A DNA stretch of 64,000 nt, from NCBI GenBank assembly GCA_964491475.1, contig CAZBFO010000002.1:277841-341840 (forward strand). The letters are read 5' to 3'. This DNA comes from an uncultured Gammaproteobacteria bacterium. Lineage in GTDB: Bacteria; Patescibacteriota; Patescibacteriia; SG8-24. This document shows positions 10,212 to 53,980 of this stretch, piece after piece; position 1 is the first letter of the stretch, and every line of letters starts with the position of its first letter. The notes under the pieces are model-generated. The model was not told where the DNA came from and did not search any database. It was given only the letters and a program-made list of their open reading frames with translations. Made by a program: the position numbers and the translations under genes.

Positions 10212-10592
10212 CTGTGCGGAGGGCAAAAAAGCGGATCACCCGGTTCGCAAAGCCCGCCCGCACGGTCTCCCTAACCCATGACGACACGTCGTCCGCGTTG
10301 CATGTCGCGTTCGGCGGCTCGTCATCCGAAGTCCCCGTCGCGGGCGCAGCGAATTCCTCTCCCGCGAGGCCCGCGGCCGGGATCTCGGCACCATTTTTAC
10401 GAGAGGGCTCTTTCCTTCACTCTTAACGCTTGTTCGCCGATGAAGCACTTCCGCAGCTAGGCAGACAATTCGTCAACAGACACGGTCCTCATCCGCCTCA
10501 CGTCCGGATGGGGGCTTTTCTTTTGCGCACCCCGCAGGCAAAAGAAAGGGGGGTTGGTGCGGAGGGGGACGGTCGCGGCAAAACGTCGTTTG

Positions 10593-18726: not shown

Positions 18727-18756
18727 CCCCTGCATTGCCAGGGGATTTTTGTTTTT
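18727..18756 (+). terminator. Rho-independent terminator
   Basis: CCCCTG-CATTGC-CAGGGG hairpin followed by ATTTTTGTTTTT. Confidence 0.55.
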
Positions 18757-18778
18757 GGTCGGCGCGGAAAGGCTTTTT

Positions 18779-18787
18779 TGCTATACT
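18779..18787 (+). promoter_or_regulatory. Extended -10 element TGCTATACT
   Basis: An exact 9-mer shared with the sites at 35668, 38851 and 48092. It lies about 56 nt upstream of the adhesin A start and just after the upstream terminator. Confidence 0.45.
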
Positions 18788-18842
18788 GCCAGCATTGCCT
18801 ACGGGCCTCGTCGTTTCAATCACTTCTTTCGCTTGTCACGAT

Positions 18843-21314
18843 ATGTCGTTCATCAGGCGTTTCGCGCAGAGGATGCTTGCCGTCGTCGGGGTCGCCGCGG
18901 CGGTGGCCGCGTCGGTTTTTGCGCTTTCCGGATCGGTCTCATTGGCGCAGACGGGTGCTGCCCCGAAGATACTGACCGGCCCCACGGTCAGCAGCATCAC
19001 CGAGGATTCGGCCATCATTCGGTGGACGACCGACGTAGAAAGCACCACCGTGGTCGATTTCGGCACCACCGACTCGCTCGGGCAGACCTATCGAAAGATC
19101 ATCCCGATCGAAGAGACCGAGGTGACGGAGATTTCGCACACGATGACGCTGTCTCCGTTGAAGGCGGGCACGCGCTACTTCTTCAAAGTGTCCTCCTCGA
19201 CTTCCGGCGGCACAGCGTCTTCGGCCATCGTCGACTTCACTTCTGCCAGCCCGGCTTGCGGTCCTGACGCCTGGACTTGCACCGACTGGAGCGCCTGTGA
19301 GAAGGGCACCGGCGGCAGCTACGGCCAGACTCGCTCCTGCAGCGTGTCGGCGGCCTGCGCCGACGCGGGAGTACCAAAGCCGCAGACGTCGCAATCCTGC
19401 ACGCCCGCCTGCACCGAGGACACCTGGACCTGCGGAAATTGGCAGGCATGCTCGGCCGGCGGCACCCAGACCCGCGCCTGCACCTTGACGACCGATTGCC
19501 CGACGGCAAGCACGCCCAAGCCAGCCACTTCGCAGAGCTGCAGGCGGCCTTGTACTGCGGACGATTGGAAGTGCGGCGAGTGGGGCGATTGCAGCAAGGA
19601 GACGCAGACGCGCTCTTGCGCCCTGCCGACCACCTGCTCGGGCACGCCAGCCAAACCGGCCGAGAGCCAAAAGTGCGTCATGCCGAAACCGGCGTGCACC
19701 GACAAGGATTGGATTTGCGGAGAATGGGGCGCTTGTTCGGCCGACGGGAAGGCGAAGCGCGACTGTTCCTTGCCTACGACCTGCCTGCCCGTAAAGCCTG
19801 ACGAAAAAACCCGCTCCGAAATCAAGGACTGCCCGCCAGCCGGTGCCGAAGGCGACAAAAAGCCCGAAGAGCCGGCGAGTCCGACCGGGCAAGACCTGAA
19901 CGAGCCGCTGCCGCCCGACGCGAACGTGCCCTTCTCTCCCTCCGAGCCTCCCGCACCTCCGGTCCCGCCGCTTTCGGCGAGCACCGTTCTGGGCGGCGGC
20001 GACGAAAGCGCGGCGCTGCTGAAGGAATGTGCCGACAACAACATCGGTCCCGACCGTTGCCCGGCTTGGCTCGATGCCAAATATGGCGACCGTTCTTGCG
20101 AGGAAAACGGTATCTTCTCGAAGGAAGCCTGCGTTGCGTTCCTGCGCAAGACGCATGGGGGAACGGTTCCGGGCTGCGAGGGTAAGACCGAGGCGGAATG
20201 CAGCGAGATTTTGGCCCGCATGATGGCCGGCTACATGCCGGGAGACATGCATGACGAGATCGACGCCATGATCGGTACGACGAAGGCCGGCGAGATGTTT
20301 GACGCGCTCGGCGATGCGGCCCCGTCTGTGCTTGCCGTTCGTGCCAGCCACAAGGACAAGGTGCGCTGGTGGCCGTCCAAGCGCTCCGGCGATCAGGAGA
20401 CTTCGCCGGGAATGTTCGTCATCGACACCGATAAGGACGGCCTGCCGGACGACGTCGAGAAGCGGCTGGGCACCGATCCGAACGTTCCCGATGCGGCCGT
20501 CGCTCGTGAGATACTGAAGAAGTTCTTCGAGGCCGGCGACAAGCCTGCGCCGGAGCAGTTGGCCGTCCGCGAAAGGCTGAAGTCGTTCTTCGAGACGGGC
20601 GATAAGCCGTCCCAGGACGACGCCCGCGCGGCGATGGCCGCCTTCTTCGGCCCCGGCACGCCGCCAGGCAGCGTCAACGCCATCGACGCGGCGTTCATCC
20701 TCGGCTTGGCCGTCGGCCAGCCGACGGGGTCGGGTACCACGGACGACAGTTTCACCGTCGACGCCACCAGTTCGCCTGACGCCGCCGACGGCGGAGGCAT
20801 CACGCTGCACGGCCATGCGGCACCGGGCGCCGTGATCTTCCTGTACGTCTACAGCTACGTGCCGATGGTGCTGACCACCACCGCCGATGACAGCGGCAAC
20901 TACCAGTACGACATTTCCGACAACGTCGTCGACGGTTCGCATACCGCCTACGTGGCCCTGGTCGACGGCGCCGGCGACGTCGCCGCGAAGAGCAGGCCGC
21001 AGTCGTTCTTCGTGAAGACCGCCTTGGCAGTCACCGAAAGCGATTTCCTTGCCACCGACGCCAAGTTGACGCCGACCACGCCCGCTTCGAAAGCTACCAG
21101 CGTCTACCTGTACGGGGTCGCCGCGCTGTTGCTGGTCGCGCTGATTGCCGTCGGGTTCGTAATGCGGGGGACGCGGAAGCGGAAGGGCGCGGCACCGTCG
21201 CCCACGGGTCCGACGCCTCCGAAACCTCCTGCTCCACCGCCCACCGCTCCGCCAGCGCCTCAAACGCCGCCGGCACCGCCTGCGGCATCACCGCCCGCAG
21301 CACCGCCACGATAG
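18843..21314 (+). CDS. Giant surface protein, paralog A. Domain order: signal peptide, FN3-like domain, four TSP1-like Cys/Trp repeats, a Cys-rich module, a TSP3-like Asp box, an Ig-like domain, a TM anchor and a Pro-rich tail.
   Basis: Signal peptide MSFIRRFAQRMLAVVGVAAAVAASVFA. FN3-like ILTGPTVSSITEDSAIIRWTT...TRYFFKV. Four repeats of C-x3-W-x-C-x2-W-x2-C...QTR-x-C. DTDKDGLPDDVEKRLGTDPNVPD. The Ig-like domain ITLHGHAAPGAVIFLYVYSYVPMVLTTTADDSGNYQYD is homologous to the C-terminus of the 38869..42900 protein. TM helix VYLYGVAALLLVALIAVGFV followed by a proline-rich tail. Confidence 0.75.
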   Translation: MSFIRRFAQRMLAVVGVAAAVAASVFALSGSVSLAQTGAAPKILTGPTVSSITEDSAIIRWTTDVESTTVVDFGTTDSLGQTYRKIIPIEETEVTEISHTMTLSPLKAGTRYFFKVSSSTSGGTASSAIVDFTSASPACGPDAWTCTDWSACEKGTGGSYGQTRSCSVSAACADAGVPKPQTSQSCTPACTEDTWTCGNWQACSAGGTQTRACTLTTDCPTASTPKPATSQSCRRPCTADDWKCGEWGDCSKETQTRSCALPTTCSGTPAKPAESQKCVMPKPACTDKDWICGEWGACSADGKAKRDCSLPTTCLPVKPDEKTRSEIKDCPPAGAEGDKKPEEPASPTGQDLNEPLPPDANVPFSPSEPPAPPVPPLSASTVLGGGDESAALLKECADNNIGPDRCPAWLDAKYGDRSCEENGIFSKEACVAFLRKTHGGTVPGCEGKTEAECSEILARMMAGYMPGDMHDEIDAMIGTTKAGEMFDALGDAAPSVLAVRASHKDKVRWWPSKRSGDQETSPGMFVIDTDKDGLPDDVEKRLGTDPNVPDAAVAREILKKFFEAGDKPAPEQLAVRERLKSFFETGDKPSQDDARAAMAAFFGPGTPPGSVNAIDAAFILGLAVGQPTGSGTTDDSFTVDATSSPDAADGGGITLHGHAAPGAVIFLYVYSYVPMVLTTTADDSGNYQYDISDNVVDGSHTAYVALVDGAGDVAAKSRPQSFFVKTALAVTESDFLATDAKLTPTTPASKATSVYLYGVAALLLVALIAVGFVMRGTRKRKGAAPSPTGPTPPKPPAPPPTAPPAPQTPPAPPAASPPAAPPR
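19255..19832 (+). repeat. Four tandem ~47-aa thrombospondin type-1-like repeats (protein level) within adhesin A
   Basis: CGPDAWTCTDWSACEKGTGGSYGQTRSC, CTEDTWTCGNWQACSAGGTQTRAC, CTADDWKCGEWGDCSKETQTRSC and CTDKDWICGEWGACSADGKAKRDC, each ending ...PKP..SQ.C. Confidence 0.55.
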
Positions 21315-23463: not shown

Positions 23464-25128
23464 TCACCGTTTGGCGCGGAAGGTCTGCATGTTGGCGTCG
23501 AACTGCGCCTTTTGCTCGGCCGTCAACATTCCCGGACCCTTGGGATTGTAACCGCCTTCCACCTCCCGGCCGTCTCCGAAGCCGTCACCGTCGGTGTCGG
23601 CCTTGAGAGGGTCGGTGCCGTAGACGTAGATTTCTTCTCCATCGGAAAGGCCGTCGAGGTCGGTGTCGGCGACGTTGGGGTTGGTGTTATAGACCATGGT
23701 CTCCTGCTCGTCGGACACGCCGTCGCCGTCGGTGTCGGCAGAAGGAGCGGCATCCGTTTGCGGGGCTTCGGCAGGAAGGGGATTCGACGGCGACGGCTGT
23801 TGTTCGGGGACGTTCGTCGCCGATGGCGGGGCGGGCACTGTCGTGGTGACGGTCTTTTCGTCCGGCGGTACCGTCGTCGGCTGCGGAGCCACGTCGAAGC
23901 CGTTGAGGCTAAGCGTATGGGGTCCTTTTGCGAAAGCCAGTACGCCCTGCTCCAGGGTGAAGCTGATGACGAAGGTCAGGTCCCGTTTCTGGTAACCGTA
24001 CCCAGGACCGTCGGGGTCCTTCGGTACCGTCTTCAGGTACCTTGGCGAAAGCTGGTCGAGCGAATCCGGATACGCCTTGTTGTCGCTGAACCAGCTGCCT
24101 AGCGCCAGCTTGATCATGTTCACGTCACCGTAACGCTGCAAGTCGCGTTCTTCGGGGGTGCTGGCGTACTTGGGAGGGGCGGTGACGGGCGCCGCCGAAG
24201 GTTCCCTGGCCTGCCGCTCGCCGAACGGGGCGTTGACGCTGATCTTGGTGAGGTCCGCAAGGTTGAACTTGGCGCGAGTCAGGAAGAAAACCGGCAGGGC
24301 TATGATGCCGACGAGACAAAACGCGCCGAGCGCCGCCAGGATGCGGTAGAAAAGCTTGCGCGAGGGCTTGACCGTCCATTCTTTTCCCACGACGGCCACG
24401 CAGTCCTCGTAGAACGTCTGCAGGTAGATGAGGTAGAAGGGGGAGAACAGCGCCGCGAACAGCCAACTTGCGGCCGAGGCCGCCGGCGAGACGAGTGCGG
24501 GCTTCGTGACCCAAGCTGCCGCCGCAGCGATGCCGCTGAACGCCAGGCCGATGATGCCGCCCATGACGGCAAGTCCCAACTGGTCGAAGAGCAGCGTAGT
24601 CGTGCGGCCGTATATCAGGTCGCGGCTTCGGGCCAGTGCCTCGACGCCCTTGCGGCGTTCATTGATGACGACGTAAACGGTTAACGTGAACCGGACGGCC
24701 ATTATCACCGCCGGGACGATCAGAAGGGAGGGCAGGAAGATGACCAATGAAAAAACAAACGTCGTGAAGATACCGGGAAGCAAGGAACCCAGACCTCGGC
24801 TGAAAGCCCTGCCGAATCGGAGTTCTCCGGCGGCGACCGCCACCAGCACGTAGGGTGCCAGCAAAGACGCCACAAAGCCGACGATGCCCAGGCCTGCAGC
24901 GGGGGCGGCCGGCAGATGGCCGCGCATCGCGGCCAATATGATGGAGGGCAGGCCGGTGACGCCGCTGATGAGCACGAACATGCCTAGCGAGGCCCGATAC
25001 CGTATGAAGGTCCTGTGCAGCCTGTCCTTCATCGGCGGAAAGATCACGGGCTTCACGAAGCCAACCGACGGCGCGGCTGGCACCGGCTGTGCGGGTTGTG
25101 CCGGAGTCACGATGGGTTCGGCTGGCAT
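23464..25128 (-). CDS. Chimeric membrane protein, paralog B: a polytopic N-terminal TM domain, a type IV pilin-like globular domain and three C-terminal TSP3-like Asp-rich calcium-binding repeats
   Basis: Six to eight TM helices in the first ~300 aa. Pilin-like motif ERDLQRYGDVNMIKLALGSWFSDNKAYPDSL...YLKTVPKDPDGPGYGY. C-terminal DTDGDGVSDEQE...DTDLDGLSDGEE...DTDGDGFGDGRE. Confidence 0.65.
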   Translation of the reverse strand: MPAEPIVTPAQPAQPVPAAPSVGFVKPVIFPPMKDRLHRTFIRYRASLGMFVLISGVTGLPSIILAAMRGHLPAAPAAGLGIVGFVASLLAPYVLVAVAAGELRFGRAFSRGLGSLLPGIFTTFVFSLVIFLPSLLIVPAVIMAVRFTLTVYVVINERRKGVEALARSRDLIYGRTTTLLFDQLGLAVMGGIIGLAFSGIAAAAAWVTKPALVSPAASAASWLFAALFSPFYLIYLQTFYEDCVAVVGKEWTVKPSRKLFYRILAALGAFCLVGIIALPVFFLTRAKFNLADLTKISVNAPFGERQAREPSAAPVTAPPKYASTPEERDLQRYGDVNMIKLALGSWFSDNKAYPDSLDQLSPRYLKTVPKDPDGPGYGYQKRDLTFVISFTLEQGVLAFAKGPHTLSLNGFDVAPQPTTVPPDEKTVTTTVPAPPSATNVPEQQPSPSNPLPAEAPQTDAAPSADTDGDGVSDEQETMVYNTNPNVADTDLDGLSDGEEIYVYGTDPLKADTDGDGFGDGREVEGGYNPKGPGMLTAEQKAQFDANMQTFRAKR

Positions 25129-25255: not shown

Positions 25256-25933
25256 TCAGAACTGTTCGGCCGCGAATTCGGCCATCATGTTGTCCGTGCG
25301 CACGCCGGTGTCGATGCCCAACTGCGACAAAGTGTCATCGTCGATGGGGACTTCGACCCGCGGAACCCAGTCGTAACTGATGCGGACAGACATGGAGTCC
25401 ATGTCCCATTCGGCGGAGATCACGTGATCGTCGCCGTAGTTGAGGTGACCGAGCCGAATCGGTCCGGCCAAGGAAACGTAGCCGCGGTCGGCGCATTCGG
25501 CGCTGGTGCTCTGGCCGGGGTTCAGCTTGGTCGAGACGTACAACGCGCTCATGCCGTCCGGTTCGCGCCGGACCATCGCGTACAGCAGGTTGCAAGGGTC
25601 CTTGGCCATGAACTTCATGCCGATCTGGTGCCGCACCTCGCCGTTGCCGAGGTGCGATACTCCCCCGGTTTCGCCGAGGAAGATGAACTGCAGATCGGCA
25701 CCGAACGTCAGCCTGCGGCTGCGGGGGAAGAGGAAGATGCCGCGCATTTCCGGACTTTCGGTCCGGAAAGGCAGGACGTCTCCGGTGCCGACGTGGCCGT
25801 CGGTCACCAGGATGCGCGTGGTCTTGTCGTCCTCGGGGCCGATGTCCGCCATGCGGACGTTGCAGCCGAGGCCGAAACAGGCAATCGCGGTGAGCGTAAG
25901 CGCGTACGCGAAACTGTCGAAATGCTTGTGCAT
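25256..25933 (-). CDS. Hypothetical lipoprotein
   Basis: Signal peptide with a lipobox-like LTAIACFGLGC. A terminator hairpin lies immediately downstream on the - strand. Confidence 0.5.
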   Translation of the reverse strand: MHKHFDSFAYALTLTAIACFGLGCNVRMADIGPEDDKTTRILVTDGHVGTGDVLPFRTESPEMRGIFLFPRSRRLTFGADLQFIFLGETGGVSHLGNGEVRHQIGMKFMAKDPCNLLYAMVRREPDGMSALYVSTKLNPGQSTSAECADRGYVSLAGPIRLGHLNYGDDHVISAEWDMDSMSVRISYDWVPRVEVPIDDDTLSQLGIDTGVRTDNMMAEFAAEQF

Positions 25934-34144: not shown

Positions 34145-35617
34145 ATGTTTTTCAAGAAGCCGACCGTGACGCGCTTAGCGCAAGACCGGATCAGCGCCAG
34201 CATGTTCTACAAGTACGACGCCTGTCCGCATTGGCTGTATTTTGACGCCTACGGCGATCCGTCCAAGAAGGCGTCGGTGACGCAGTTCACGGAGATGCTG
34301 CTCAAGGGCGGCGTGCTGCACGAGCAGGAGGTCATCAAGGACATGCAGTGCGTGCAGCCCAAGGGCGACACGCAGGAAGAGCGGTTCTCGGCCACGCTGC
34401 AGCTCATGCGCGACGGCGCGGCCTGCATCTACCACGGCGTGCTGATGGACGACGAGTTCGTGGGCGAGCCGGACCTGCTGGAGCGACGCGACGGCTCGGC
34501 CGGTTCGACCTTCGGCAGCTACCATTACGTGCCCGTGGAGATCAAGAGCGCCGAACGCGTTTCCGACGCGCACAAGTACCAGTTGTACTGTTATGGCGAA
34601 CTGCTGGAACGGCTGCAGGGCACGCGGCCCGAGGAAGCCTACGTGCTGAACGGCTCGGGCCTGCGCATCGGTTTCATGCTGCGCGAGTTCCGCGAGCAGT
34701 TCGCCGCCGCCGTCGAGGACATCCGCAAGACTTTGGCCGGCGATCCTCCGCCGCCGCACGTGGCCTCGAGCTGCAAGCAGTCGCCATGGTTCAAGGAGTG
34801 CCTGGCCTTCGCCGAGAAGCAGGACGACATCGCCCTGCTGTACAACGTGAAGAAGAAGGTGGTGGCGGCGCTGCGCGAACACGGCGTCAGGACCGTCCAG
34901 GACGCCGCCAAGATCGAGCCGAACCGGCTCGCCAAGGAAGACAAGCTGTTCAAGCCGGCGCTGCTGGAGCGCATCGTGCTGCAGGCCCGGGCGCTGATCG
35001 AAAAGCGCCACTTCGTCCGCAAGCCGCTCGACATTCCCGAAGCGCCCCTGGAAATCTTCTTCGACATCGAAGGCGATCCGCTGCGGCAGGTGGAATACCT
35101 GTTCGGCTTCCTGGTGCGCCGCCAAGGACAGGAGGAAAAGTACGAGTACCAGATTGCCGAACGCGCCGAGGACGAAGCCAAGATGTGGAACGAGTTCCTG
35201 ACGTGGGTGAGCGCGCTCGAAGGGGATTACGTGGTGTACCACTACGGCACCTATGAGCTGACGAGGCTCATCCAGCTGGAGGCGCGTCACGGTTGCCCGG
35301 CAGGGCAGGCCGCGGCGCTCAATCTGTTCCGCGACCGGTTGGTGGACCTGAACGAGCTGGTGAAGGACGCGGTGGTGTTTCCGCTGTACTTCTACAGCAT
35401 CAAGGACATCGGCAAGTACATCGGCTTCACCCGAGAGGGCGCCATCGTCGGGGGCGGGGAGTCGGTGGCGGTCTACGAGGACTGGCTGGCCAACGGCGAC
35501 CGCAAAAAGCTCGACGACATCATCCTCTACAACAAGGAGGACGTGATCGCCACGCGCTACCTCAAGGACTGGCTGGTACTGGAACGCGACCGCGAAAAGG
35601 CCGATCGGGCCCTGTAA
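34145..35617 (+). CDS. TM0106-family putative nuclease (RecB/Cas4-like PD-(D/E)xK domain plus a C-terminal RNase H-like domain)
   Basis: N-terminal YKYDACPHWLYFD...EPDLLERRDG...YVPVEIKS (PD-(D/E)xK) and C-terminal FFDIEGDP...YHYGTYE (RNase H-like exonuclease). Confidence 0.75.
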   Translation: MFFKKPTVTRLAQDRISASMFYKYDACPHWLYFDAYGDPSKKASVTQFTEMLLKGGVLHEQEVIKDMQCVQPKGDTQEERFSATLQLMRDGAACIYHGVLMDDEFVGEPDLLERRDGSAGSTFGSYHYVPVEIKSAERVSDAHKYQLYCYGELLERLQGTRPEEAYVLNGSGLRIGFMLREFREQFAAAVEDIRKTLAGDPPPPHVASSCKQSPWFKECLAFAEKQDDIALLYNVKKKVVAALREHGVRTVQDAAKIEPNRLAKEDKLFKPALLERIVLQARALIEKRHFVRKPLDIPEAPLEIFFDIEGDPLRQVEYLFGFLVRRQGQEEKYEYQIAERAEDEAKMWNEFLTWVSALEGDYVVYHYGTYELTRLIQLEARHGCPAGQAAALNLFRDRLVDLNELVKDAVVFPLYFYSIKDIGKYIGFTREGAIVGGGESVAVYEDWLANGDRKKLDDIILYNKEDVIATRYLKDWLVLERDREKADRAL

Positions 35618-38829: not shown

Positions 38830-38850
38830 CGCCCGTGCTTGGACGGGAAG

Positions 38851-38859
38851 TGCTATACT
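38851..38859 (+). promoter_or_regulatory. Extended -10 element TGCTATACT for giant surface protein C
   Basis: The ATG at 38869 is 10 nt downstream. Confidence 0.45.
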
Positions 38860-38868
38860 TTTCGCGGT

Positions 38869-41800
38869 ATGCCAGCCAAAAAGACCCGGTCGCGAAAATC
38901 GTCCAAACCGTCGGCGGAGCACGGCGACTCCGTCCTGTTGCGATTGGCCGTCGGGGCGGTCCTGCTGGGCATGGTCTGGGCCGCAGTTCCGCTGGCGAAA
39001 GCGCTGACCACCACCATCACTTCCGTCGTCGATCAGGCGTTTTCGGCGGCGGTGACCGCGCCGTCGTCAGGCTCGACCATCAGCGGAACGGTGCCGTTGG
39101 AGGCGCGGGTCGCGGCTGCGGCGAGTTCGGGGATATTCACGCTTTCCGGCGGTCCGAACGGTTTGCAACAGCCCATACAGGGCACGCAAGACGCTTCGGA
39201 CGCGCTGAAGTGGACGGCCAAGCTTGATGCTTCCGTGCTTGTTGCCGGCACCTATGCCCTGGGATTTTCCGCCGTGCGCGCCGTCGACGGGCTGACAGCC
39301 AGTTCGCCGCAGATTTCCCTGATCGTCGCCGATCAGGCGCCGGCCAAGTACGTCATCACCTTCGTGTCGCCCAGATCGGGCTCAACGGTATCCGGCACTG
39401 TCGCGCTCACGGCCGGCGTGAACCTGGCAGCTGACTCGCTGACCTACGTCGTCACGCCCGTAGCCGGCGGGGGATTGGTAGAGTTGAAGTCGTCTTTTGA
39501 CGGCACGAACGGCACTTGGGTCGGCAGCTGGAATACCGCCGAATTTCCGAATGGCACCTATACCGTGGTGCCCCACGCCTTTCACGCCGCCGTGATGGAA
39601 GTGGGCGACCCCGTTACCTTGACCGTCAGCAATGCCGCTCCGCCTCCGACCTTCACCGCGACCGTGCGGACGCCCGCCTCGGGCAGCGCGCTGAAGGGCA
39701 TCGTGACGTTCAGCTCCGTCACCAACCTGGCCGCCACCGGCCTTGCCTATGTCGTGACCGATGCCGGCGGCGCGCCTGTCGCTTCGCTGAACGCCGCTCC
39801 TTCTAACGGCAGCCTGCAATGGGACGCGACTTGGGACACGACGGCAGTATCCAACGGCACCTATTCGCTCAAGGCCACCTCGATCCGTACGGGCGCGCAG
39901 GCGGAGGCCGGCCCGGTTTCCTTCACGATCGCCAACCAGGCCGCGTCGACGTTATTGACCGTCCTGATGGCCGCGCCGGCCAAGGGCGCGGTGGTCTCTG
40001 GCAGCGTGCAGGTGTACGCGCAGACTTCCCTGGCGGCAGACAGCCTTTCCTTCACCATCACCCAGACTTTCGGCAGCAAGCACGTCACGCAGCTTGCGGC
40101 GGCAGGAGGTCCGACCTCCTGGTATGCCGCCTGGGATTCTTCGGCATTGGAGCCGGGGGCCTACCTCATTCACGCCACGGCCCTGAAGGGCACGGGAACG
40201 AACGTGAGCGACGACGTCGCTTTCAGCGTCACGGCGCCGTCCGCCGGATCGCCGACGCCGGTCTCCGCTGCCGTCAACGTCACGGTGCCGGTTTCGGGCG
40301 CGACGGTCGCCGGTCAGATGAGCCTGGCTGCGCGCACGGACTCCGCCGTGGACCTCGCCGGGTTTGAGTTGCGCAACGCCGTCGCGCCGGACGCGGCGCC
40401 TGTCGCCACGGTGGCTGCCAGCGGAGCCGACGGCGGTACCTCGTGGACGGCGACGATGAACACTACCGCCATTCCCGACGGCGAATACGTGGTGGTGGCC
40501 GTCGTGACCCGCAACGGCGTGAAAGCCTCCAGCGCGGCCGTTCCCGTGCATTTGAAGAATCTCACCAGCGGCCAGGCGGCCGTGCCCTCTTTTGAAATCC
40601 GATCGCCCGCGCCCGGCGCCTCGGTCTCCGGCATCGTGCCTTTCTACGCCTCATCCTCGGCCGCCATCGACGGGCTGGCCTTCATTCTTCAGGGGCCGAC
40701 AGTACCCGGCAGCAGGATGGCGTTGCCGGCTACCGGCAACGCCGAAAAGACCGCATGGACGGTCAATTGGAATTCCGGAACGGTGCCCGACGGCAGCGTC
40801 TCCCTGTCGGCCGTGGCTTCGAAATCGGGACATGAGTCCGAGGGGGCGCCGCGCGCGTTCACGGTCGCCAACGGCGCTTCGGCCCCGGTGCAGCCTCCTC
40901 CGACCGCCACCGCGCCTCCGGCAGCGGCCACGACCTTCAAGGTGACCGTGGTCAATCCGGTGACCGGACAGATTTACGCCGGACAAGTGCCATTGGCCGC
41001 CGCCGTCGACGGCGGCACCGCGCTGAACGTGCGGTTCACCGTCGGTGCCGCGAGCGGCGGTGCCGTGGCGGACATCGACGCGCATTTCGATTCGAAGACC
41101 AAGCGCTGGGTGGCGCTCTGGAAGCCAGACGCCGCCGCAACCGGCACTTACGTCGTGACGGCGACGGCCCAAAATACCAGAGGCCAGACGGCGCAAAGCG
41201 AAAGGGTCAAAGTGCTTTTCGGCGCTTCTAGGCCGGGGGAGCCAGCCGCGCCCGGATCGCCGCCGTCGCCGCCGGAGGTGCCGAAGCCCGTCGTTTCGGG
41301 AGAAAAAGCGGCGCTCATCGTGAAAATCTCCTCGCCTGTCGCTTCGTCGGTATTGCGCGGACCGGCGGTACTTGCCGCAGACGCAGAGGGCGCGGCTGAA
41401 GTCGGTTTCGCCATCCGCCCGATCAAAGAAGGGGAGGCGACGACTCGACGCGCGGCCAGCGACGGAACGCGCTGGGTCGCTTATCTCGACACCACGGCAA
41501 TTCCTGACGGCGATTACGAAATCGAAGCTTCGGCCGTCGACGCCGCCGGCAATCGCGCGGTCTCGCAGCGTCTGCCTTTCGGCGTGCGCAACGCGGGCGG
41601 CGGGGCGCCCGTGAGCAGGGTGGACGTCGTGCCTCCCGCGGCAGTAGTCGCTTCGGTGCTCGAACGGCCGCAAGGATCCGTCTCGCTTTCCGCCGATCCG
41701 CTGCCGCAGTCCGTTTCGGACGCGACCGACCAGCTCAATGCCGACTGCATCGCCAGGAAAGTTCCCGCCGAGAGGTGTTCCGAATGGTTGGCTCGGCAGT

Positions 41801-42900
41801 CGGAGCGGCAGGAATGCGCGGCCGCCGGCATCGTCACCAAGGAAGAGTGCCTTGCCTATCTGAAATCCAAGCGCGGCGGACAGGTGGCAGCCTGCGAAGG
41901 CCGCACCGACGAAGACTGCGCCAAAGTCGTGGCCATCGCCACCGCCGACCTGATCTTTGACGCCGACCTGCGCGCTTTGCGCGACGCTGCCTTGCAGAAC
42001 GTGGGACGGGTGCTGCAAATGCCCCCGCGCGGCAAGCAGGCAGCAGGCGGCGGGGACATTCCTCCGGCGCCGCCCGGATTGGCAGACCTTTCGCCTTTCG
42101 CGGGAGAAGCGCCGGTGAACGTCGGCTTGCACGCCTCGCCCGGTTTCGGCACGACCGACGGCAACGTCGCCCATCAGAACCTGCCGGCCTTCGTAATGGT
42201 CGACACCGACGGTGACAACTTGCCGGACGACATCGAGCTCCGCCTGGGAACCGATCCGCGCAATCCCGATTCCGACGGCGACGGCTACAACGACGGCTTG
42301 GAAGTCGAACGCGGCTACAATCCGCTCGGTCCGGGGGCGCTTCTTGGGAACGTGACCTTGGCGCCGGTCGATCAGGCGGTCATCTCCGGCATTGCCATCG
42401 AGCAACCGACTGACGCGGGAACGGTCGCGCCTGACCTGAAGGTGGAGACGGCAGTCGCCCAAAAGGAAAAGGAAGGCACCTTCACCATCGGGGGCCGCGC
42501 CAAGCCGCACGACGTCGTGACGGTGTTCGTCTACAGCTACCTGCCGGTCGTGTTCACTACCGCCGCCAAGGACGACGGCACCTGGACCTACGATCTCGGA
42601 ACGGGCCTGGCCGACGGGCAGCACGAGGCCTACGCGACCGTGACCGACGACACGGGAAAGATTTCCGCCAAGAGCGAACCGCTGTCGTTCTTCGTCTCCG
42701 GCGCGAAGGCCGTGACGCAGGATGAATTCTTCAATCCCTCCTCGTCGCCGCTTTCCGCCGCGGCGGTGGCGGCACCCAGCCAGGCGCTGCTCGGCTGGTA
42801 CATCGGCGCAGTGGCGATGCTGATGGGCATCGCGCTGGTCGTCTCGTTCCTGCTGTTCATGCGGCCAAAAAAGAATCAGCCGCCTCCTCCGTCGCAATAG
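38869..42900 (+). CDS. Giant surface protein, paralog C (1343 aa). Domain order: signal/TM, about 9-10 tandem Ig-like domains, a Cys-rich module, TSP3-like Asp boxes, an Ig-like domain, a TM anchor and a Pro-rich tail.
   Basis: A repeated ~100-aa unit (P.SGS.VSGTV.L.A...L.YVVT...W....W.T....NGTY). The Cys module DCIARKVPAERCSEWL...ECAAAGIVTKEECLAYLKSKRGGQVAACEGRTDEDC is homologous to paralog A. DTDGDNLPDDIELRLGTDPRNPDSDGDGYNDG. TM helix WYIGAVAMLMGIALVVSFLLF followed by KKNQPPPPSQ. Confidence 0.8.
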   Translation: MPAKKTRSRKSSKPSAEHGDSVLLRLAVGAVLLGMVWAAVPLAKALTTTITSVVDQAFSAAVTAPSSGSTISGTVPLEARVAAAASSGIFTLSGGPNGLQQPIQGTQDASDALKWTAKLDASVLVAGTYALGFSAVRAVDGLTASSPQISLIVADQAPAKYVITFVSPRSGSTVSGTVALTAGVNLAADSLTYVVTPVAGGGLVELKSSFDGTNGTWVGSWNTAEFPNGTYTVVPHAFHAAVMEVGDPVTLTVSNAAPPPTFTATVRTPASGSALKGIVTFSSVTNLAATGLAYVVTDAGGAPVASLNAAPSNGSLQWDATWDTTAVSNGTYSLKATSIRTGAQAEAGPVSFTIANQAASTLLTVLMAAPAKGAVVSGSVQVYAQTSLAADSLSFTITQTFGSKHVTQLAAAGGPTSWYAAWDSSALEPGAYLIHATALKGTGTNVSDDVAFSVTAPSAGSPTPVSAAVNVTVPVSGATVAGQMSLAARTDSAVDLAGFELRNAVAPDAAPVATVAASGADGGTSWTATMNTTAIPDGEYVVVAVVTRNGVKASSAAVPVHLKNLTSGQAAVPSFEIRSPAPGASVSGIVPFYASSSAAIDGLAFILQGPTVPGSRMALPATGNAEKTAWTVNWNSGTVPDGSVSLSAVASKSGHESEGAPRAFTVANGASAPVQPPPTATAPPAAATTFKVTVVNPVTGQIYAGQVPLAAAVDGGTALNVRFTVGAASGGAVADIDAHFDSKTKRWVALWKPDAAATGTYVVTATAQNTRGQTAQSERVKVLFGASRPGEPAAPGSPPSPPEVPKPVVSGEKAALIVKISSPVASSVLRGPAVLAADAEGAAEVGFAIRPIKEGEATTRRAASDGTRWVAYLDTTAIPDGDYEIEASAVDAAGNRAVSQRLPFGVRNAGGGAPVSRVDVVPPAAVVASVLERPQGSVSLSADPLPQSVSDATDQLNADCIARKVPAERCSEWLARQSERQECAAAGIVTKEECLAYLKSKRGGQVAACEGRTDEDCAKVVAIATADLIFDADLRALRDAALQNVGRVLQMPPRGKQAAGGGDIPPAPPGLADLSPFAGEAPVNVGLHASPGFGTTDGNVAHQNLPAFVMVDTDGDNLPDDIELRLGTDPRNPDSDGDGYNDGLEVERGYNPLGPGALLGNVTLAPVDQAVISGIAIEQPTDAGTVAPDLKVETAVAQKEKEGTFTIGGRAKPHDVVTVFVYSYLPVVFTTAAKDDGTWTYDLGTGLADGQHEAYATVTDDTGKISAKSEPLSFFVSGAKAVTQDEFFNPSSSPLSAAAVAAPSQALLGWYIGAVAMLMGIALVVSFLLFMRPKKNQPPPPSQ
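39050..41270 (+). repeat. About 9-10 tandem ~100-aa Ig-like (Big-like) domain repeats (protein level) in surface protein C
   Basis: Recurrent SGSTVSGTV.L.A....AADSLTYVVT...W.A.WDT.A.PNGTY... units. The nucleotide sequences have diverged. Confidence 0.55.
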
Positions 42901-47644: not shown

Positions 47645-47802
47645 CGTCTTGCGCATATCGAACCGGGGGTGGCAGGGGGTGGGGGACCCCGTCAGCGCGG
47701 AGGTCGCCCGCAGGCGACCGAGCACTGCCGGGGGTGACCCCCTGACAGGACCCCCGGCCCGCATGGCAGCAACATCCTTATAAGTGATTAACTTGGTATC
47801 GC
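47645..47802 (+). other. Structured GC-rich spacer between xseA and xseB (G5/C5 runs, alternative hairpins, possible G-quadruplex)
   Basis: G5 runs at about 47664-47684 (GGGGGTGGCAGGGGGTGGGGGACCCC). Hairpin GGTCGCC-CGCA-GGCGACC. The overlapping hairpins GCCGGGGG...CCCCCGGC and GGGGG-TGA-CCCCC are mutually exclusive. xseA/xseB are usually contiguous or overlapping. Confidence 0.45.
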
Positions 47803-50300: not shown

Positions 50301-51482
50301 TCAGGCGGGTTCGTCGTTGGCGGCATCTTCGCGCTCGGCGGCCGCGAGCCGATGCTCCAGGCCGGCCAGCTCGTTGCCGGCTGCTTTGCGTCGCAGGACG
50401 ATGTGCGGGCGCACGTGCACGGTCTTGGTGCGCGTGTCTTCGCCTTCCGCATCCTTGCGGCGCGGCGGACGACGCCAGTGGCCTGGCTTGATGTGCGCCG
50501 GGAGGTCGCTGCCGCCGCCCAGCATGCCGATGCCCAGGAACATCCTGCGATGCTCGGAGGTAAGCGGCTTGTCGGTGCTGACGACGGCGTATTCGGCACC
50601 GTGCAGTACGGGATCAGGACAAGCCTTCCAAGGTGACACCAGCGCGGTGTCTTTCGGCAGCGTGTCCAGGTACAGGCACAGGCCGATGACCAGGCGAGCC
50701 GCCTGATCCCATTCGGGGTGGGTGCCGCCGCAGCCGCACAGTTTCCCGTGCTGCTTCTGCATCAGGTCGTCGATCGAGTCGGTCACCGGGAGGTCGGCGA
50801 TGCCGTCTTCAAACAGGCCGAAGTTCGAGAGGCTGCCTGCATGGACGCGCTGCCGTGCCGCCTTGAATTCGGCGTCTAGTGTCGGCCAGCGCTTTTCTGC
50901 CAGCGCCTTTTCCATGCGCGCCCTCGTGCCTGGTTCAAGCGGAGCGCGTTCCAATCTCTTGGAGAGCAGCCGGAAGCTGATCAGCGTCCTGGGTTCGCCG
51001 CCACCGGGGTCGGCGAGACAAATGCCGTTTACCAAAATGGCATCGATAGGTGCGCCGGTCTTGTCGATGATGGGCTCCTCAAGTCCCACCACAAAGGCAC
51101 CGGACGGCCAGGGAATTCCAGACCAGGTGACGCCCTTGAGGGAAGTCGCGTTGAGCAGCGCCTGCAAGTCGCGGGACAGGCGATAGCCGCGGCGCGACTC
51201 CGTCATCCATGACGCGACGTGCACCGGAATCATGACCCGCGTGGCGCCGACCGCCTCTATCAGGGTATCTTCCGGCTGCAGATAAGGCGCTAAATGGTCG
51301 AGGCTCCCTGTGGCCTTGGCATGGACTTCGGTCCGCAGCTGTCGGTTGTTCTTAACGACCCAGTCCAGCGGACTGGGCGGAATGCCGCCGGTCCTTGCGT
51401 TCAGCGCCTTTCGCATGCCGTACAGGAAAATGCAGTCCTCCCAAATGCGAAGCATCTGGCTGACGCGGGCGAGCTGTTTCAT
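50301..51482 (-). CDS. Hypothetical protein (393 aa) with a CGCGG motif and an Arg/His-rich C-terminus
   Basis: GC3 is high and the gene is divergent from the rplJ leader region. Contains HGKLCGCGGTHPEWD and ...HIKPGHWRRPPRRKD...VHVRPHIVLRRK. No family recognised. Confidence 0.55.
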   Translation of the reverse strand: MKQLARVSQMLRIWEDCIFLYGMRKALNARTGGIPPSPLDWVVKNNRQLRTEVHAKATGSLDHLAPYLQPEDTLIEAVGATRVMIPVHVASWMTESRRGYRLSRDLQALLNATSLKGVTWSGIPWPSGAFVVGLEEPIIDKTGAPIDAILVNGICLADPGGGEPRTLISFRLLSKRLERAPLEPGTRARMEKALAEKRWPTLDAEFKAARQRVHAGSLSNFGLFEDGIADLPVTDSIDDLMQKQHGKLCGCGGTHPEWDQAARLVIGLCLYLDTLPKDTALVSPWKACPDPVLHGAEYAVVSTDKPLTSEHRRMFLGIGMLGGGSDLPAHIKPGHWRRPPRRKDAEGEDTRTKTVHVRPHIVLRRKAAGNELAGLEHRLAAAEREDAANDEPA

Positions 51483-51636: not shown

Positions 51637-51658
51637 ACCGGCACAACCGAATTGCCTA

Positions 51659-51770
51659 AGACAATGGGTCCCGAAAAGGGTTAAGTGCTCGCGAAAGCGG
51701 GCGGCCTATCGAGGTAACAGCCTTTGATTTTCCCCGTAAACGGGCGAAAACGCATTGGAACCCATTGTCT
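51659..51770 (+). promoter_or_regulatory. Structured 5' leader of rplJ, candidate L10(L12)4 autoregulatory leader
   Basis: An 11-bp perfect long-range inverted repeat (AGACAATGGGT...ACCCATTGTCT) encloses about 90 nt containing a CCC-GAAAA-GGG hairpin, a CUCGC-GAAA-GCGGG GNRA hairpin and a CCCG-UAAA-CGGG hairpin. Confidence 0.4.
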
Positions 51771-51844
51771 GCGGCCATACGGCGTGCAGATGTTTTGTTT
51801 TAAAGGTCGATTTGGAGGAATCAACGTAAAAGGAGAATCCCACT

Positions 51845-52369
51845 ATGGCCAAGTCTCGTGCAAAGAAGCAATCAGAAGTTCAGGAGTTCGTTGAAGGTTT
51901 CACCAAGTCGAACGCGGTCGTCTTCGCGGACTTGTCAGGACTCAAGGTGAACGACGCCTCGTCGTTCCGCCGCACCGCCAAGAAGGAGGACGTCGCCATC
52001 AACACGGCGAAGAAGACCCTTCTGAAGATCGCCCTCAAGGAAGCTGCCGTGACGGCAGTCGACACCAAGGACCTCGGCGGCTCGGTCTCGATGCTCTTCG
52101 GCTTCGGCGACGCCGTCGCTCCCGCCAAGGTGCTCGAGGAGTTCCGCAAGGATCACGCCAACGTCAAAGTGCTCGGCGGCATCCTCGAAGGAAAGTGGAT
52201 GACCACCCAGCAGGTCCAGGCGCTCGCCAAGCTTCCTTCGAAGCAGCAGCTGCTGGGACAGCTCGTCGGTACGCTCAACGCGCCGGTCTCCGGCTTCGTC
52301 AACGTGCTCGCCGGCAACCTCCGCGGTCTCGTCACCGTTCTCAATGCGGTCAAGGAAGCCAAGGCTTAA
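51845..52369 (+). CDS. rplJ: 50S ribosomal protein L10
   Basis: An AAAGGAG RBS, and N-terminal FVEGFTKSNAVVFADLSGLKVNDASSFRR typical of L10. Confidence 0.95.
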   Translation: MAKSRAKKQSEVQEFVEGFTKSNAVVFADLSGLKVNDASSFRRTAKKEDVAINTAKKTLLKIALKEAAVTAVDTKDLGGSVSMLFGFGDAVAPAKVLEEFRKDHANVKVLGGILEGKWMTTQQVQALAKLPSKQQLLGQLVGTLNAPVSGFVNVLAGNLRGLVTVLNAVKEAKA

Positions 52370-52402
52370 TACTCAACTGTTGTTAAACTACCCACCACTA
52401 CT

Positions 52403-52807
52403 ATGTCGGAAATGAAGAACGTGGAGGTCCCGGCCAAGTTCAAGGACCTCGTCGAGTCGATCGAAAAGATGACCGTCCTTGATCTCGCCGAGCTCGTGAA
52501 GCTCCTCGAGGACAAGTTCGGCGTCTCCGCCGCCGCTCCTGCCATGATGATGGCCGCCCCGGCCGTCGGCGGTGCAGCTGCCGCCGCCGAAGAGAAGACC
52601 TCTTTCGACGTTGAGCTCACCGATGCCGGCGCCAACAAGATCGGCGTCATCAAGGCGGTCCGCGAACTGACCCAGCTCGGCCTCAAGGAGGCCAAGGACA
52701 TGGTCGACGGCGCCCCCAAGATGGTCAAGGAAGGCGTCGCCAAGGCCGATGCCGACACCATGAAGAAGAAGCTCGAAGAGGCCGGCGCCAAGGTTACCCT
52801 CAAGTAA
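52403..52807 (+). CDS. rplL: 50S ribosomal protein L7/L12
   Basis: N-terminal dimerisation helix, an Ala-rich hinge ([22 protein letters not shown]) and a C-terminal domain ([67 protein letters not shown]). Confidence 0.95.
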
Positions 52808-52820
52808 CCGGCGCAACCGA

Positions 52821-52852
52821 AAAGACCGCTCGCAAGGGGCGGTCTTTTTTTG
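52821..52852 (+). terminator. Rho-independent terminator after rplL
   Basis: AGACCGC-TCGCAAGGG-GCGGTCT followed by TTTTTTT. Confidence 0.7.
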
Positions 52853-52870
52853 CGGCTATGCGATGTGAGG

Positions 52871-53035
52871 GCCAGCGGCGCAGCCGCGAGGCGGCCCCGC
52901 CCGCAGGGGTACAGAATATTTTTTAGCCTGCGGGCCAAAAAATTTCCTCTACCTCGCGCGAAATCCGGCTGCGGCCGGATTTCGCGCTGCGGTAAGCCCC
53001 CTGCGGGCGGGGCCGCCTCGCGGCTGCGCCGCTGG
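52871..53035. repeat. MITE-like nested palindromic element with perfect 39-bp terminal inverted repeats enclosing two internal hairpins
   Basis: Left arm 52871-52909 (GCCAGCGGCGCAGCCGCGAGGCGGCCCCGCCCGCAGGGG) is the exact reverse complement of right arm 52997-53035. The 87-nt core holds ATTTTTT-AGCCTGCGGGCC-AAAAAAT and a 14-bp stem GCGCGAAATCCGGC-TGCG-GCCGGATTTCGCGC. Confidence 0.6.
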
Positions 53036-53128
53036 CGTGGCAGATGCAGGGGCTCAAATTGACCGGGCTGGCGGACGTGGTACTGTTGCGGCGTTGTTCA
53101 TTTCGTTACACGAAAAAGAGGTGCGACG

Positions 53129-53980
53129 ATGTCGCGGATTGTTGGCGTGGATTGCGGCACTTCTTTGCGGAAGTATGCTTGGCGCGGCGACGACGGGAAG
53201 CTGCAGTTTCGGACCTGTTTCGGCGACGCGCGGGAAGAGCAGCTGCTCAAGGAGCTGATCGGCGGGTGCTGCGTCACGGCGCAGCTGGTCGGGATAGGTG
53301 AGCGGCCCACGGCCGACTGCGTCATTTATCGCACGGCGACCGGAGATGTCATCGACGACGAGGTGCGGTTGCAGGCCGAGGGCGTGCGGCAGCTGCTCAA
53401 GGAGCAGGGGATGCCGCACGACGAATTCTTGGTCGCGTCGGTCGGGACGGGAACGTCTTACGCCGTTTTTGCCGACGGAAAGGCGGAGAAACTGCCGTTC
53501 GGAAATCCGATCGGCGGCGGGTTCATTTCCGGACTCTCTCGGGGTGCGCCGCACTGGGTGATGGCCGATCTGGCGGCCAAGTCCATGGGCGATTCGCTCG
53601 ATCTGCTGTATAAGCACGTCTTTCCCGAGAAGGAAGGGAGCGCAGAAGGCGAATTCGTCATTTCGCATTTCGCGCGCAAAGTCGAAAAGCGCACCGCCGA
53701 ACAGTACTACGCCAGCGTGCTGAACACCGTCGCCGTGGCGGTGGCGCGCGACCTGCTGATGTATCGCGCGTCGCGTCCGCTGCCGCAGCAGGTGGCGTTC
53801 ATAGGCACGTGCGTCAGCATGATGCGGCCGCTGGCGCTGCTGCTGCAGGCGTACGCGGCGGGAATCGGGTTCACCCCGACGGTGCCCGTCAGCGGGGAAT
53901 ATTCGGCGGCGATCGGCGCCTTGCTTTCGGCGGAGGCGGAACGTGCCGCCGAGCAGGGCGGAGACATCGGCGAACGCTGA
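53129..53980 (+). CDS. ASKHA-superfamily ATPase, putative type II (fumble-like) pantothenate kinase
   Basis: Phosphate-1 motif IVGVDCGTSLRKYAW and phosphate-2/adenosine motif LVASVGTGTSYAVF resemble CoaW/fumble PanK. An AAGAGG RBS precedes the ATG. Confidence 0.55.
   Translation: MSRIVGVDCGTSLRKYAWRGDDGKLQFRTCFGDAREEQLLKELIGGCCVTAQLVGIGERPTADCVIYRTATGDVIDDEVRLQAEGVRQLLKEQGMPHDEFLVASVGTGTSYAVFADGKAEKLPFGNPIGGGFISGLSRGAPHWVMADLAAKSMGDSLDLLYKHVFPEKEGSAEGEFVISHFARKVEKRTAEQYYASVLNTVAVAVARDLLMYRASRPLPQQVAFIGTCVSMMRPLALLLQAYAAGIGFTPTVPVSGEYSAAIGALLSAEAERAAEQGGDIGER

What the first reader, a model, noticed from the sequence alone, without database searches (positions are those of the whole stretch)
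52871..53035. 165-bp element with perfect 39-bp terminal inverted repeats and two internal hairpins directly after the rplL terminator
A perfect 39-bp inverted repeat (52871-52909 and 52997-53035) is far beyond what transcription termination needs. The 87-nt core contains a 7+3-bp hairpin (ATTTTTT AGCC-TGCG-GGCC AAAAAAT) and a perfect 14-bp hairpin (GCGCGAAATCCGGC-TGCG-GCCGGATTTCGCGC). Both hairpins share the loop TGCG, and the arms contain the same CCTGCGGGC core as the first hairpin. This nested, self-similar palindromic organisation is typical of MITEs or REP/BIME-like genomic repeats. As RNA it would form a 39-bp perfect duplex, a substrate for RNase III. As DNA it could extrude a cruciform. 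Only one copy is visible in this window.
Basis: seen in the sequence. Interest (0 to 1): 0.65.

Follow-up and report, generated by a model that had tools for sequence, protein, structure and literature searches.

The report
Orphan 166-bp nested palindrome after rplL
A real but one-off 166-bp DNA palindrome sits between a ribosomal-protein operon and the next gene of an uncultured Patescibacteria (CPR) bacterium; related genomes lack it and no other copy was found, so it looks like a young local oddity, not a proven mobile repeat or conserved regulator.

Summary
It starts 15 nt after the rplL terminator. It is the only long inverted repeat in the 64 kb.

The genome is a 63% GC Patescibacteria/Parcubacteria-like MAG. 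I found no second copy in the window, GTDB species genomes, JGI metagenomes, IMG/VR, plasmids, phages or 5.8 billion predicted proteins. There is no convincing target-site duplication, no transposase or recombinase in the window, no Rfam match and no promoter in the core.

Four related genomes (five contigs; RplL 87-91% identical) have only the terminator after rplL. The L10 leader upstream is clearly conserved in the three relatives whose contigs cover it. So this is not an ancestral regulatory RNA.

A fifth genome, one of the closest relatives by RplL (L014), has a simpler TGCG-loop hairpin at the equivalent place.

Best reading (0.4): a young palindrome grown locally from such a hairpin by replication template switching. 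Main rival (0.3): a solitary MITE-like insertion. Either way, read-through RNA would form a 39-bp duplex.

Interest is low to moderate.

The parts
51637..51807 (+). L10 leader-like RNA upstream of rplJ. It is context and a control, not part of the element.
   Evidence: Rfam RF00557 scores 32.9 bits, E=0.0048, below the gathering score. It has an imperfect 26-nt stem. Blocks are invariant across the three relatives aligned, L008, L014 and L010.
51845..52807 (+). rplJ (51845-52369) and rplL (52403-52807)
   Evidence: Pfam Ribosomal_L10, Ribosomal_L12 and Ribosomal_L12_N
52820..52855 (+). rplL intrinsic terminator: stem AAAAGACCGC.../...GCGGTCTTTT plus a T run
   Evidence: (I6). An equivalent terminator is present in all relatives.
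52871..52909 (.). Left arm of the perfect 39-nt inverted repeat (90% GC)
52908..52953 (+). Hairpin 1: a degenerate 21-nt palindrome with a 7+3-bp inner stem, AT-rich (39% GC), loop TGCG at 52929-52932
   Evidence: (I2)
52956..52987 (+). Hairpin 2: perfect 14-bp stem, loop TGCG at 52970-52973
   Evidence: (I3)
52998..53036 (.). Right arm of the perfect 39-nt inverted repeat
   Evidence: The Logan contig starts at 53007, 30 nt from the arm's outer end.
53059..53086 (+). The only promoter-like site between the element and the next gene (TTGACC, 16 nt, TACTGT; 8 of 12 matches). This is inferred, not shown.
53129..53980 (+). Downstream gene, a type II pantothenate kinase-like protein
   Evidence: NCBIfam NF009842 aligns full length with E=3e-24, below its cut-off. 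Homologues carry PF03630.

Best explanation
This is a real, single-locus, evolutionarily young nested palindrome. It lies in the spacer between the rplL terminator and the likely promoter of the next gene.

The most likely origin is local, not transposition. I infer the following history. An ancestral C(TGCG)G-loop hairpin sat downstream of the rplL terminator; a simpler one is still seen at that place in L014, one of the closest relatives by RplL. Replication template switching (inverted copying onto the opposite or nascent strand) expanded and homogenised it. The result is the degenerate hairpin 1, the perfect hairpin 2 and the perfect 39-bp arms.

The likely consequences are also inferred, not shown:
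- The element is transcribed only by read-through of the rplL terminator.
- That RNA folds into a three-way structure closed by a 39-bp perfect duplex. Such a duplex is an RNase III substrate and a barrier to 3' exonucleases.
- This would separate transcripts of the strongly expressed rplJL operon from the pantothenate kinase-like gene.
- In supercoiled DNA it could extrude a cruciform.

It is probably neutral or only mildly useful, tolerated because it sits in a transcriptionally quiet gap.
For: Shown:
- The arms are perfect and unique.
- No other copy was found in the window, GTDB species genomes, JGI metagenomes, IMG/VR, plasmids or phages, or as any translated frame among 5.8 billion proteins.
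- The flanks are ...GTGAGG|arm and arm|GTGGCA, so there is no target-site duplication.
- Pfam scans of about 50 window proteins found no transposase, integrase or recombinase.
- The element is absent after rplL in L007, L008/L009, L010 and L015. The syntenic rplL-to-kinase spacer is 118 bp in L008/L009 against 321 bp here.
- The L10 leader is conserved in the relatives whose contigs cover it, L008, L014 and L010. Functional non-coding RNA is therefore still alignable at this distance.
- L014 (RplL 91%, RplJ 80%) has the hairpin CCCGCGCC-TGCG-GGCGCGGG about 90 nt after the rplL stop, in the same orientation. Its 10-nt centre is the same as that of hairpin 1. It matches the inner part of the arm at 17 of 18 positions; 4 of 200 shuffles score as well.
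- Among 66 perfect hairpins in about 100 kb of this clade, TGCG loops occur only at these two rplL-downstream sites. The probability that a shuffled L014 tail contains one is 0.00085.
- CTGCGG occurs four times in direct orientation inside the element. This is the densest cluster in the window and is consistent with repeated copying of one hairpin centre.
- No promoter-like site exists in the core; the only one lies downstream of the element.

From the literature:
- Template switching can create perfect stems of tens of bases in one event, with patterns up to 59 bp observed (PMC8794818).
- It preferentially corrects imperfect bacterial inverted repeats to perfect ones (PMC5941160).

Inference: zero mismatches across 106 paired positions implies formation or homogenisation within roughly 0.03 substitutions per site. 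That is far more recent than the split from the relatives.
Against: - No ancestral or empty-site sequence close enough to align was available, so no template-switch event could be reconstructed.
- The L014 resemblance was noticed after the fact and rests on one contig that ends 14 nt past the hairpin.
- The spacer is about 200 bp longer than in L008. That needs net insertion of sequence, not just conversion.
- The AT-rich hairpin 1 region (39% GC in a 63.5% GC genome) and the overall architecture (long perfect terminal repeats, short structured non-coding core, 166 bp) are exactly what a MITE looks like.
- The rest of this genome could not be searched, so 'single copy' is shown only for 64 kb.
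- There are no expression data. The RNase III and insulation effects are untested.
Confidence: 0.4

Rival explanations
1. A solitary or low-copy MITE-like (foldback) non-autonomous transposable element, or the internally deleted remnant of an insertion sequence (IS). It would have inserted into the safe spacer after the rplL terminator.
For: - Architecture: 39-bp perfect terminal inverted repeats, a 166-bp non-coding structured core, and a partly AT-rich interior.
- It is absent from the equivalent spacer of relatives, which is about 200 bp shorter in the syntenic L008.
- Prokaryotic MITE families can have as few as one copy per genome (MITEAba12: 1-22 copies; PMC10969869).
- The L014 contig ends right after a similar hairpin, which could reflect a repeat there.
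Against: - No second copy anywhere searched.
- No target-site duplication, although perfect arms imply a young insertion whose duplication should still be intact. At most there is an ambiguous GC/GGC overlapping the arm ends.
- No transposase in 64 kb.
- No similarity to plasmid or phage sequences.
Confidence: 0.3
2. A dedicated, selected cis-regulatory structure. On the sense strand it would act as an RNA processing, stabilising or insulating element after rplL. Alternatively it would be a protein-binding DNA palindrome.
For: - Both core hairpins carry C(UGCG)G loops on the rplL-sense strand. That fits the stable UNCG tetraloop class (my own knowledge), and the orientation is the same as in L014.
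- The structure is extremely stable: -150 kcal/mol, z = -15.
- The placement is between a strong operon's terminator and the next gene.
Against: - Not conserved in L007, L008/L009, L010 or L015, while the L10 leader is conserved in L008, L014 and L010.
- No Rfam family matches, even at E = 10.
- A 39-bp stem with no G-U pair or mismatch is unlike selected RNA stems. The L10 leader stem in this same locus is 81% complementary.
- Strand evidence conflicts. The A x C mismatch in hairpin 1 becomes a G-U pair on the minus strand, which folds slightly better (-154.9 against -149.7 kcal/mol).
Confidence: 0.12
3. An inverton: a DNA segment flipped by a site-specific recombinase acting on the 39-bp repeats, switching expression of the downstream gene.
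For: - Inverted repeats flank a short intergenic segment upstream of a gene.
- The size is within the range reported for invertons; more than 75% are under 300 bases (PMC11602134).
- k-mer assemblies cannot tell the two orientations apart.
Against: - The core has no promoter-like site in either orientation.
- No invertase or recombinase in 64 kb.
- The downstream gene is a housekeeping-type kinase, not a surface or variable function.
Confidence: 0.05
4. An assembly artefact: a chimeric join or an artificially homogenised repeat.
For: The window comes from a metagenome-assembled contig. Inverted repeats longer than k are difficult for assemblers. Only the right junction is independently seen.
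Against: - The rplJL-to-kinase order is syntenic with L008, so the flanks are truly adjacent.
- The Logan contig carries the right arm joined to the right flank. It breaks exactly at k-1 inside the arm, which requires the arm to occur in two contexts in the reads.
- The structure has unique flanks, two arms and a unique core. That is not the form of amplification or foldback chimeras.
Confidence: 0.04

Closest known systems
Prokaryotic MITEs, especially Correia/CREE elements of Neisseria
   Same: - A short (about 100-200 bp) non-coding element bounded by long terminal inverted repeats.
- Intergenic placement next to genes.
- When transcribed, the repeats pair into a duplex. For Correia elements RNase III cleaves this duplex (PMC2649163, PMC10969869).
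   Different: - Correia elements have about 26-bp repeats (my own knowledge), a TA target duplication (my own knowledge), an IHF site and promoters, and more than 100 copies per genome.
- Here there is one copy, no duplication, no promoter-like site and no sequence similarity.
REP/BIME elements
   Same: GC-rich palindromic units clustered just after the 3' ends or terminators of genes. They could protect upstream mRNA from 3' exonucleases (my own knowledge of REP function).
   Different: REPs are 20-40-nt imperfect palindromes present in tens to hundreds of copies and associated with RAYT transposases. No other copy and no RAYT is present in 64 kb.
Quasipalindrome correction and template-switch mutations
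   Same: They produce perfect reverse-complement repeats of tens of bases in one step and keep bacterial inverted repeats perfect (PMC8794818, PMC5941160). This would explain perfect arms, nested palindromes, a shared hairpin centre, single-locus occurrence and the lack of a target duplication.
   Different: Documented events are mostly short. The largest pattern in PMC8794818 is 59 bp. Building a 166-bp structure would need several events, and no ancestral sequence is available to show any of them.
Invertons (invertible promoters)
   Same: Inverted repeats flanking a segment under 300 bp, upstream of a gene (PMC11602134).
   Different: No promoter in the segment, no recombinase nearby, and a housekeeping downstream gene.

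Membership tests
MITE | Terminal inverted repeats bounding a short (about 50-800 bp) non-coding sequence | tested here: met
   39-nt perfect arms, 166 bp in total. No frame of the element matches any predicted protein.
MITE | Direct target-site duplication flanking the repeats | tested here: not met
   The flanks are GTGAGG| and |GTGGCA, with only 1 nt shared. A 2-3-nt GC/GGC overlapping the arm ends cannot be told from chance.
MITE | Several related copies in the genome (a family) | tested here: inconclusive
   None in 64 kb. None in GTDB species genomes, JGI metagenomes, IMG/VR, plasmids, phages or the protein collection. The rest of this MAG could not be searched.
MITE | A parent insertion sequence or transposase with matching terminal repeats | tested here: inconclusive
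   No transposase in the window and no match in plasmids or phages. No insertion-sequence database (such as ISfinder) and not the whole genome were available.
REP/BIME | Short imperfect palindromes repeated at many intergenic sites | tested here: not met
   This is the only such palindrome in 64 kb. No partial copy is longer than 16 nt.
REP/BIME | An associated RAYT (Y1 transposase) | tested here: not met
   No such domain in about 50 window proteins. The rest of the genome was not tested.
Inverton | A promoter inside the invertible segment | tested here: not met
   No sigma-70-like site in the core in either orientation.
Inverton | A cognate site-specific recombinase | tested here: not met
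   None in the 64-kb window.
Inverton | Both orientations present in the population | not testable with these tools
   This needs reads spanning a whole 39-nt arm. k=31 graphs are identical for both orientations.
Known structured RNA families (Rfam 15) | A match to a covariance model | tested here: not met
   No hit at gathering score. At E up to 10 there are only chance microRNA or small-RNA hits to hairpin 2.
Intrinsic terminator | A GC-rich hairpin followed by a U run | tested here: not met
   Neither the arms nor either core hairpin is followed by a T run on either strand. The true rplL terminator lies upstream at 52820-52855.
Template-switch-derived palindrome | One arm is ancestral local sequence and the other is its inverted copy | tested here: inconclusive
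   L014 has a TGCG-loop hairpin at the equivalent place, similar to the inner part of the arm. No alignable ancestor is available.

The most novel reading that the evidence does not exclude
The element is a snapshot of the de novo birth of a long, perfect RNA/DNA stem-loop structure. An ancestral UNCG-type hairpin after the rplL terminator would have been amplified by successive replication template switches into a three-way structure with a 39-bp stem. That structure would now be starting to act as an RNase III-dependent insulator between rplJL and the downstream kinase gene in a reduced CPR genome.
Probability: 0.2. Interest if true: 0.5.

Novelty: new member of a known kind. Interest (0 to 1): 0.3.

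Why it matters
If the element arose locally, it would be a clean bacterial example of template switching building a long perfect stem from a small hairpin. So far that idea rests mainly on ancestral reconstructions of rRNA and microRNA genes. It would also be a useful example for CPR genomes, where I found no literature on repeat or palindrome biology.

If it proves to be a MITE, I know of no described MITE family in Patescibacteria (one search found none), so it could be an early example.

Either way there is a practical lesson. A perfect inverted repeat longer than k breaks k-mer assemblies exactly at the arm, as seen in Logan. It also leaves the orientation of the core unresolved.

On present evidence this is an orphan curiosity with no demonstrated function.

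Tried and rejected
**Searches for other copies**
- Exact 24-mers from the arm against genome contigs gave one hit. It codes for GEAAPPAGE in a Planctomycetota gene and diverges immediately, so it is chance.
- The outer 24-mer against metagenome contigs gave three hits. All diverge after 24-25 nt and none has a partner arm, so they are chance.
- IMG/VR gave nothing for the arm 24-mer or hairpin 2.
- blastn against plasmids and phages gave only matches with E of 0.1 or worse, covering 13-22% of the query.
- A six-frame translation of the element against 5.8 billion proteins gave nothing.
- blastn-short against the rest of the window and all loci gave chance matches of 16 nt or less.

**Attempts to get more sequence**
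- Recovering the left junction in the Logan assembly through a guessed partial RplL product failed.
- Extending the genome sample beyond the window added only about 1.9 kb.
- The closest relative by the kinase gene (78% identity, JGI contig L005) starts inside that gene, so its spacer is unseen.
- RplL relatives in IMG/VR gave only a 41%-identical hit.

**Ideas rejected**
- A genome-wide CCTGCGGG hairpin motif: 7 sites observed against about 7 expected by my own composition estimate (observed).
- Terminator, ribozyme, 6S RNA, retron, attC or origin readings: no U run, no Rfam hit, no reverse transcriptase or integrase, no GC-skew or gene-orientation switch.
- A Tn3-type 38-bp terminal repeat: the GGGG is at the inner end of the arm, not the outer end (my own knowledge of Tn3 repeats).

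Full report

Yes. The window carries a perfect 39-nt inverted repeat at 52871-52909 and 52998-53036.

The core holds two hairpins.
- Hairpin 1 has a 7+3-bp inner stem with an A x C mismatch and loop TGCG (52929-52932). It sits inside a degenerate 21-nt palindrome, 52908-52953.
- Hairpin 2 has a perfect 14-bp stem at 52956-52987 and loop TGCG (52970-52973).

CCTGCGGGC is shared by hairpin 1 and the right arm, and its reverse complement is in the left arm.

The arm has no chance expectation in shuffles of the window. It is the only long inverted repeat in 64 kb. The element folds with z of about -15 as RNA on either strand and as DNA.

The rplL terminator (52820-52855) is a canonical hairpin plus T run. 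The element begins 15 nt after it.

A Logan (k=31) contig from run SRR12313479 starts exactly 30 nt inside the right arm. That is the expected graph break when the arm occurs in two contexts, so the repeat is in the reads and is not an invention of one assembler.

**2. Context**

The genome is a 63.5% GC Patescibacteria/Parcubacteria-like bacterium. The RplL neighbours that carry a name are mostly labelled that way. The identical proteins sit on a 386-kb NCBI contig and in two Logan runs.

rplJ-rplL stand alone, with no rpoBC after them. An L10 leader-like RNA precedes them. A type II pantothenate kinase-like gene follows at 53129.

The only promoter-like site in the spacer is TTGACC, 16 nt, TACTGT at 53059-53086, downstream of the element. 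The core has none in either orientation. The element therefore lies in a gap that is probably transcribed only by terminator read-through. This is an inference.

Pfam scans of about 50 window proteins found no transposase, integrase, invertase or RAYT.

**3. Copies elsewhere**

None were found.
- In the window, no match to the arm with up to 3 mismatches, and no partial match above 16 nt.
- GTDB species genomes gave one 24-mer hit inside a Planctomycetota coding region that diverges at once.
- JGI metagenomes gave three 24-25-nt hits that diverge at once and have no partner arm.
- IMG/VR gave zero hits.
- Plasmids and phages gave nothing significant.
- All six reading frames against 5.8 billion predicted proteins gave nothing.

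No Rfam family matches.

The limits of this are clear. Seeds were exact 24-mers, and the remainder of this MAG could not be searched.

**4. Relatives**

Contigs carrying the closest RplL proteins (87-91% identity) were fetched.
- L008/L009 are syntenic (xseAB..., rplJL, kinase). Their spacer is 118 bp, against 321 bp here, and holds only the terminator.
- L007, L010 and L015 have other genes after rplL and also only a terminator.

Beyond the terminator the spacers do not align.

As a control, the L10 leader upstream of rplJ aligns with invariant blocks in L008, L014 and L010. Selected non-coding RNA is therefore still recognisable at this distance, and the 166-bp element is not an ancestral conserved structure.

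These relatives are distant; the kinase in L008 is only 42% identical. So no precise empty site could be defined.

**5. A lead from L014**

L014 is among the closest relatives (RplL 91%, RplJ 80%). About 90 nt after its rplL stop it carries the hairpin CCCGCGCC-TGCG-GGCGCGGG, in the same orientation. The contig ends 14 nt later.
- Its 10-nt centre, GCCTGCGGGC, is the same as the centre of hairpin 1.
- It matches the inner part of the arm at 17 of 18 positions with one gap. Four of 200 shuffles score as well.
- Among 66 perfect hairpins (stem of 6 bp or more, 4-nt loop) in about 100 kb of this clade, TGCG loops occur only at these two rplL-downstream sites.
- A shuffled L014 tail contains such a hairpin with probability 0.00085.

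This was noticed after the fact and rests on one contig. It does suggest that a TGCG-loop hairpin after the rplL terminator predates the elaborate palindrome.

Inside the element, CTGCGG occurs four times in direct orientation. That is the densest cluster in the window.

**6. Interpretation**

Perfect pairing over 106 positions (the two arms plus hairpin 2) means the structure formed or was homogenised within roughly 0.03 substitutions per site. That is much later than the split from the relatives.

Two origins fit.

(a) Local growth by replication template switching. This can create perfect stems of tens of bases in one event (up to 59 bp observed; PMC8794818). It also preferentially perfects bacterial inverted repeats (PMC5941160). 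It explains the single locus, the lack of a target duplication, the nested palindromes with a shared centre and the L014 hairpin. I rate it 0.4.

(b) A solitary MITE-like insertion. It fits the architecture, the extra 200 bp or so and the AT-rich hairpin 1 region (39% GC). MITE families can be single-copy in some genomes (PMC10969869). However, a young insertion with perfect repeats should still show its target duplication, and there is none. I rate it 0.3.

Less likely readings:
- A selected regulatory structure (0.12). The C(UGCG)G loops on the sense strand speak for it. The lack of conservation, the unnaturally perfect stem and a conflicting G-U signal on the minus strand speak against it.
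- An inverton (0.05). There is no promoter in the core and no recombinase.
- An assembly artefact (0.04). Synteny with L008 and the k-1 break in Logan argue against it.

A REP/BIME-type high-copy family is excluded for this window.

**7. How it would act (inferred)**

Read-through transcripts from the strongly expressed rplJL operon would fold into a three-way structure closed by a 39-bp perfect duplex. Long perfect duplexes are RNase III substrates, as shown for the paired repeats of Correia elements (PMC2649163, PMC10969869). Stable 3' hairpins block exonucleases.

The net effect would be to uncouple rplJL transcripts from the downstream kinase gene, which appears to have its own promoter. 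None of this is shown.

**8. Verdict**

The MITE/REP label is not demonstrated. The element is an orphan, lineage-specific, young nested palindrome of a known general kind, with no sequence relatives.

Interest is about 0.3. It would rise if reads or closer genomes showed stepwise template-switch growth or RNA processing.

Noticed in passing
window 51637-51807: An L10 leader-like RNA upstream of rplJ. It is below the Rfam gathering score (32.9 against 44 bits, E=0.0048). However, blocks such as GCCTATCGAGGTA and GTCTGCGG are invariant in three related genomes. It is probably a divergent CPR version of RF00557.
   Followed up: partly
window 50301-51482 (- strand): A 393-aa ORF with good codon-position GC bias lies between a 161-aa ORF and rplJ. 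It is absent from the syntenic contig L008 and from L010. It has no Pfam, PHROG or NCBIfam match and no flanking repeats. It is a second lineage-specific insertion, 1.4 kb from the palindrome.
   Followed up: partly
L014 1386-1424: One of the closest relatives has an extended hairpin, GGTG..CCCGCGCC-TGCG-GGCGCGGG..CACC, about 90 nt after rplL. The loop and closing pairs are the same as in hairpin 1. The Logan contig ends 14 nt later, so whether a larger palindrome follows is unknown.
   Followed up: partly
window 52808-53128 compared with L007, L008, L010, L015: rplJL is not followed by rpoBC in this clade, and the gene after rplL differs between relatives: a kinase, a convergent 134-aa gene, the 741-aa gene, or an amidohydrolase. 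The region just after rplL seems to be a rearrangement hotspot.
   Followed up: partly
L001 1-30 (window 53007-53036): The Logan k=31 contig starts exactly k-1 bases inside the 39-nt arm. Perfect inverted repeats longer than k fragment these assemblies, and the ends mark the repeat.
   Followed up: yes
window 47702-47719: A 7-bp hairpin, GGTCGCC-CGCA-GGCGACC. On the minus strand its centre reads GCC-TGCG-GGC, the same as hairpin 1. It probably lies inside the xseB coding region and is likely chance.
   Followed up: no
window 34145-35617: A TM0106-family RecB-like or Cas4-like nuclease (TIGR03491, E=1e-92). No CRISPR array or other cas genes were noticed nearby.
   Followed up: no
window 25411-25436: A 26-nt near-palindrome, CGGCGGAGATCACGTGATCGTCGCCG, centred on CACGTG. 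It is the only other inverted repeat that passed the whole-window scan.
   Followed up: no
window 18735-21314, 23464-25128, 38839-42900: Three large proteins with bacterial Ig-like, fibronectin type III and TSP3 repeats, probably surface proteins, are clustered in the window.
   Followed up: no
window 10500-10570: A likely bidirectional terminator between convergent genes, CTTTCTTTTGC...GCAAAAGAAAG. Its loop contains CCCGCAGG.
   Followed up: no
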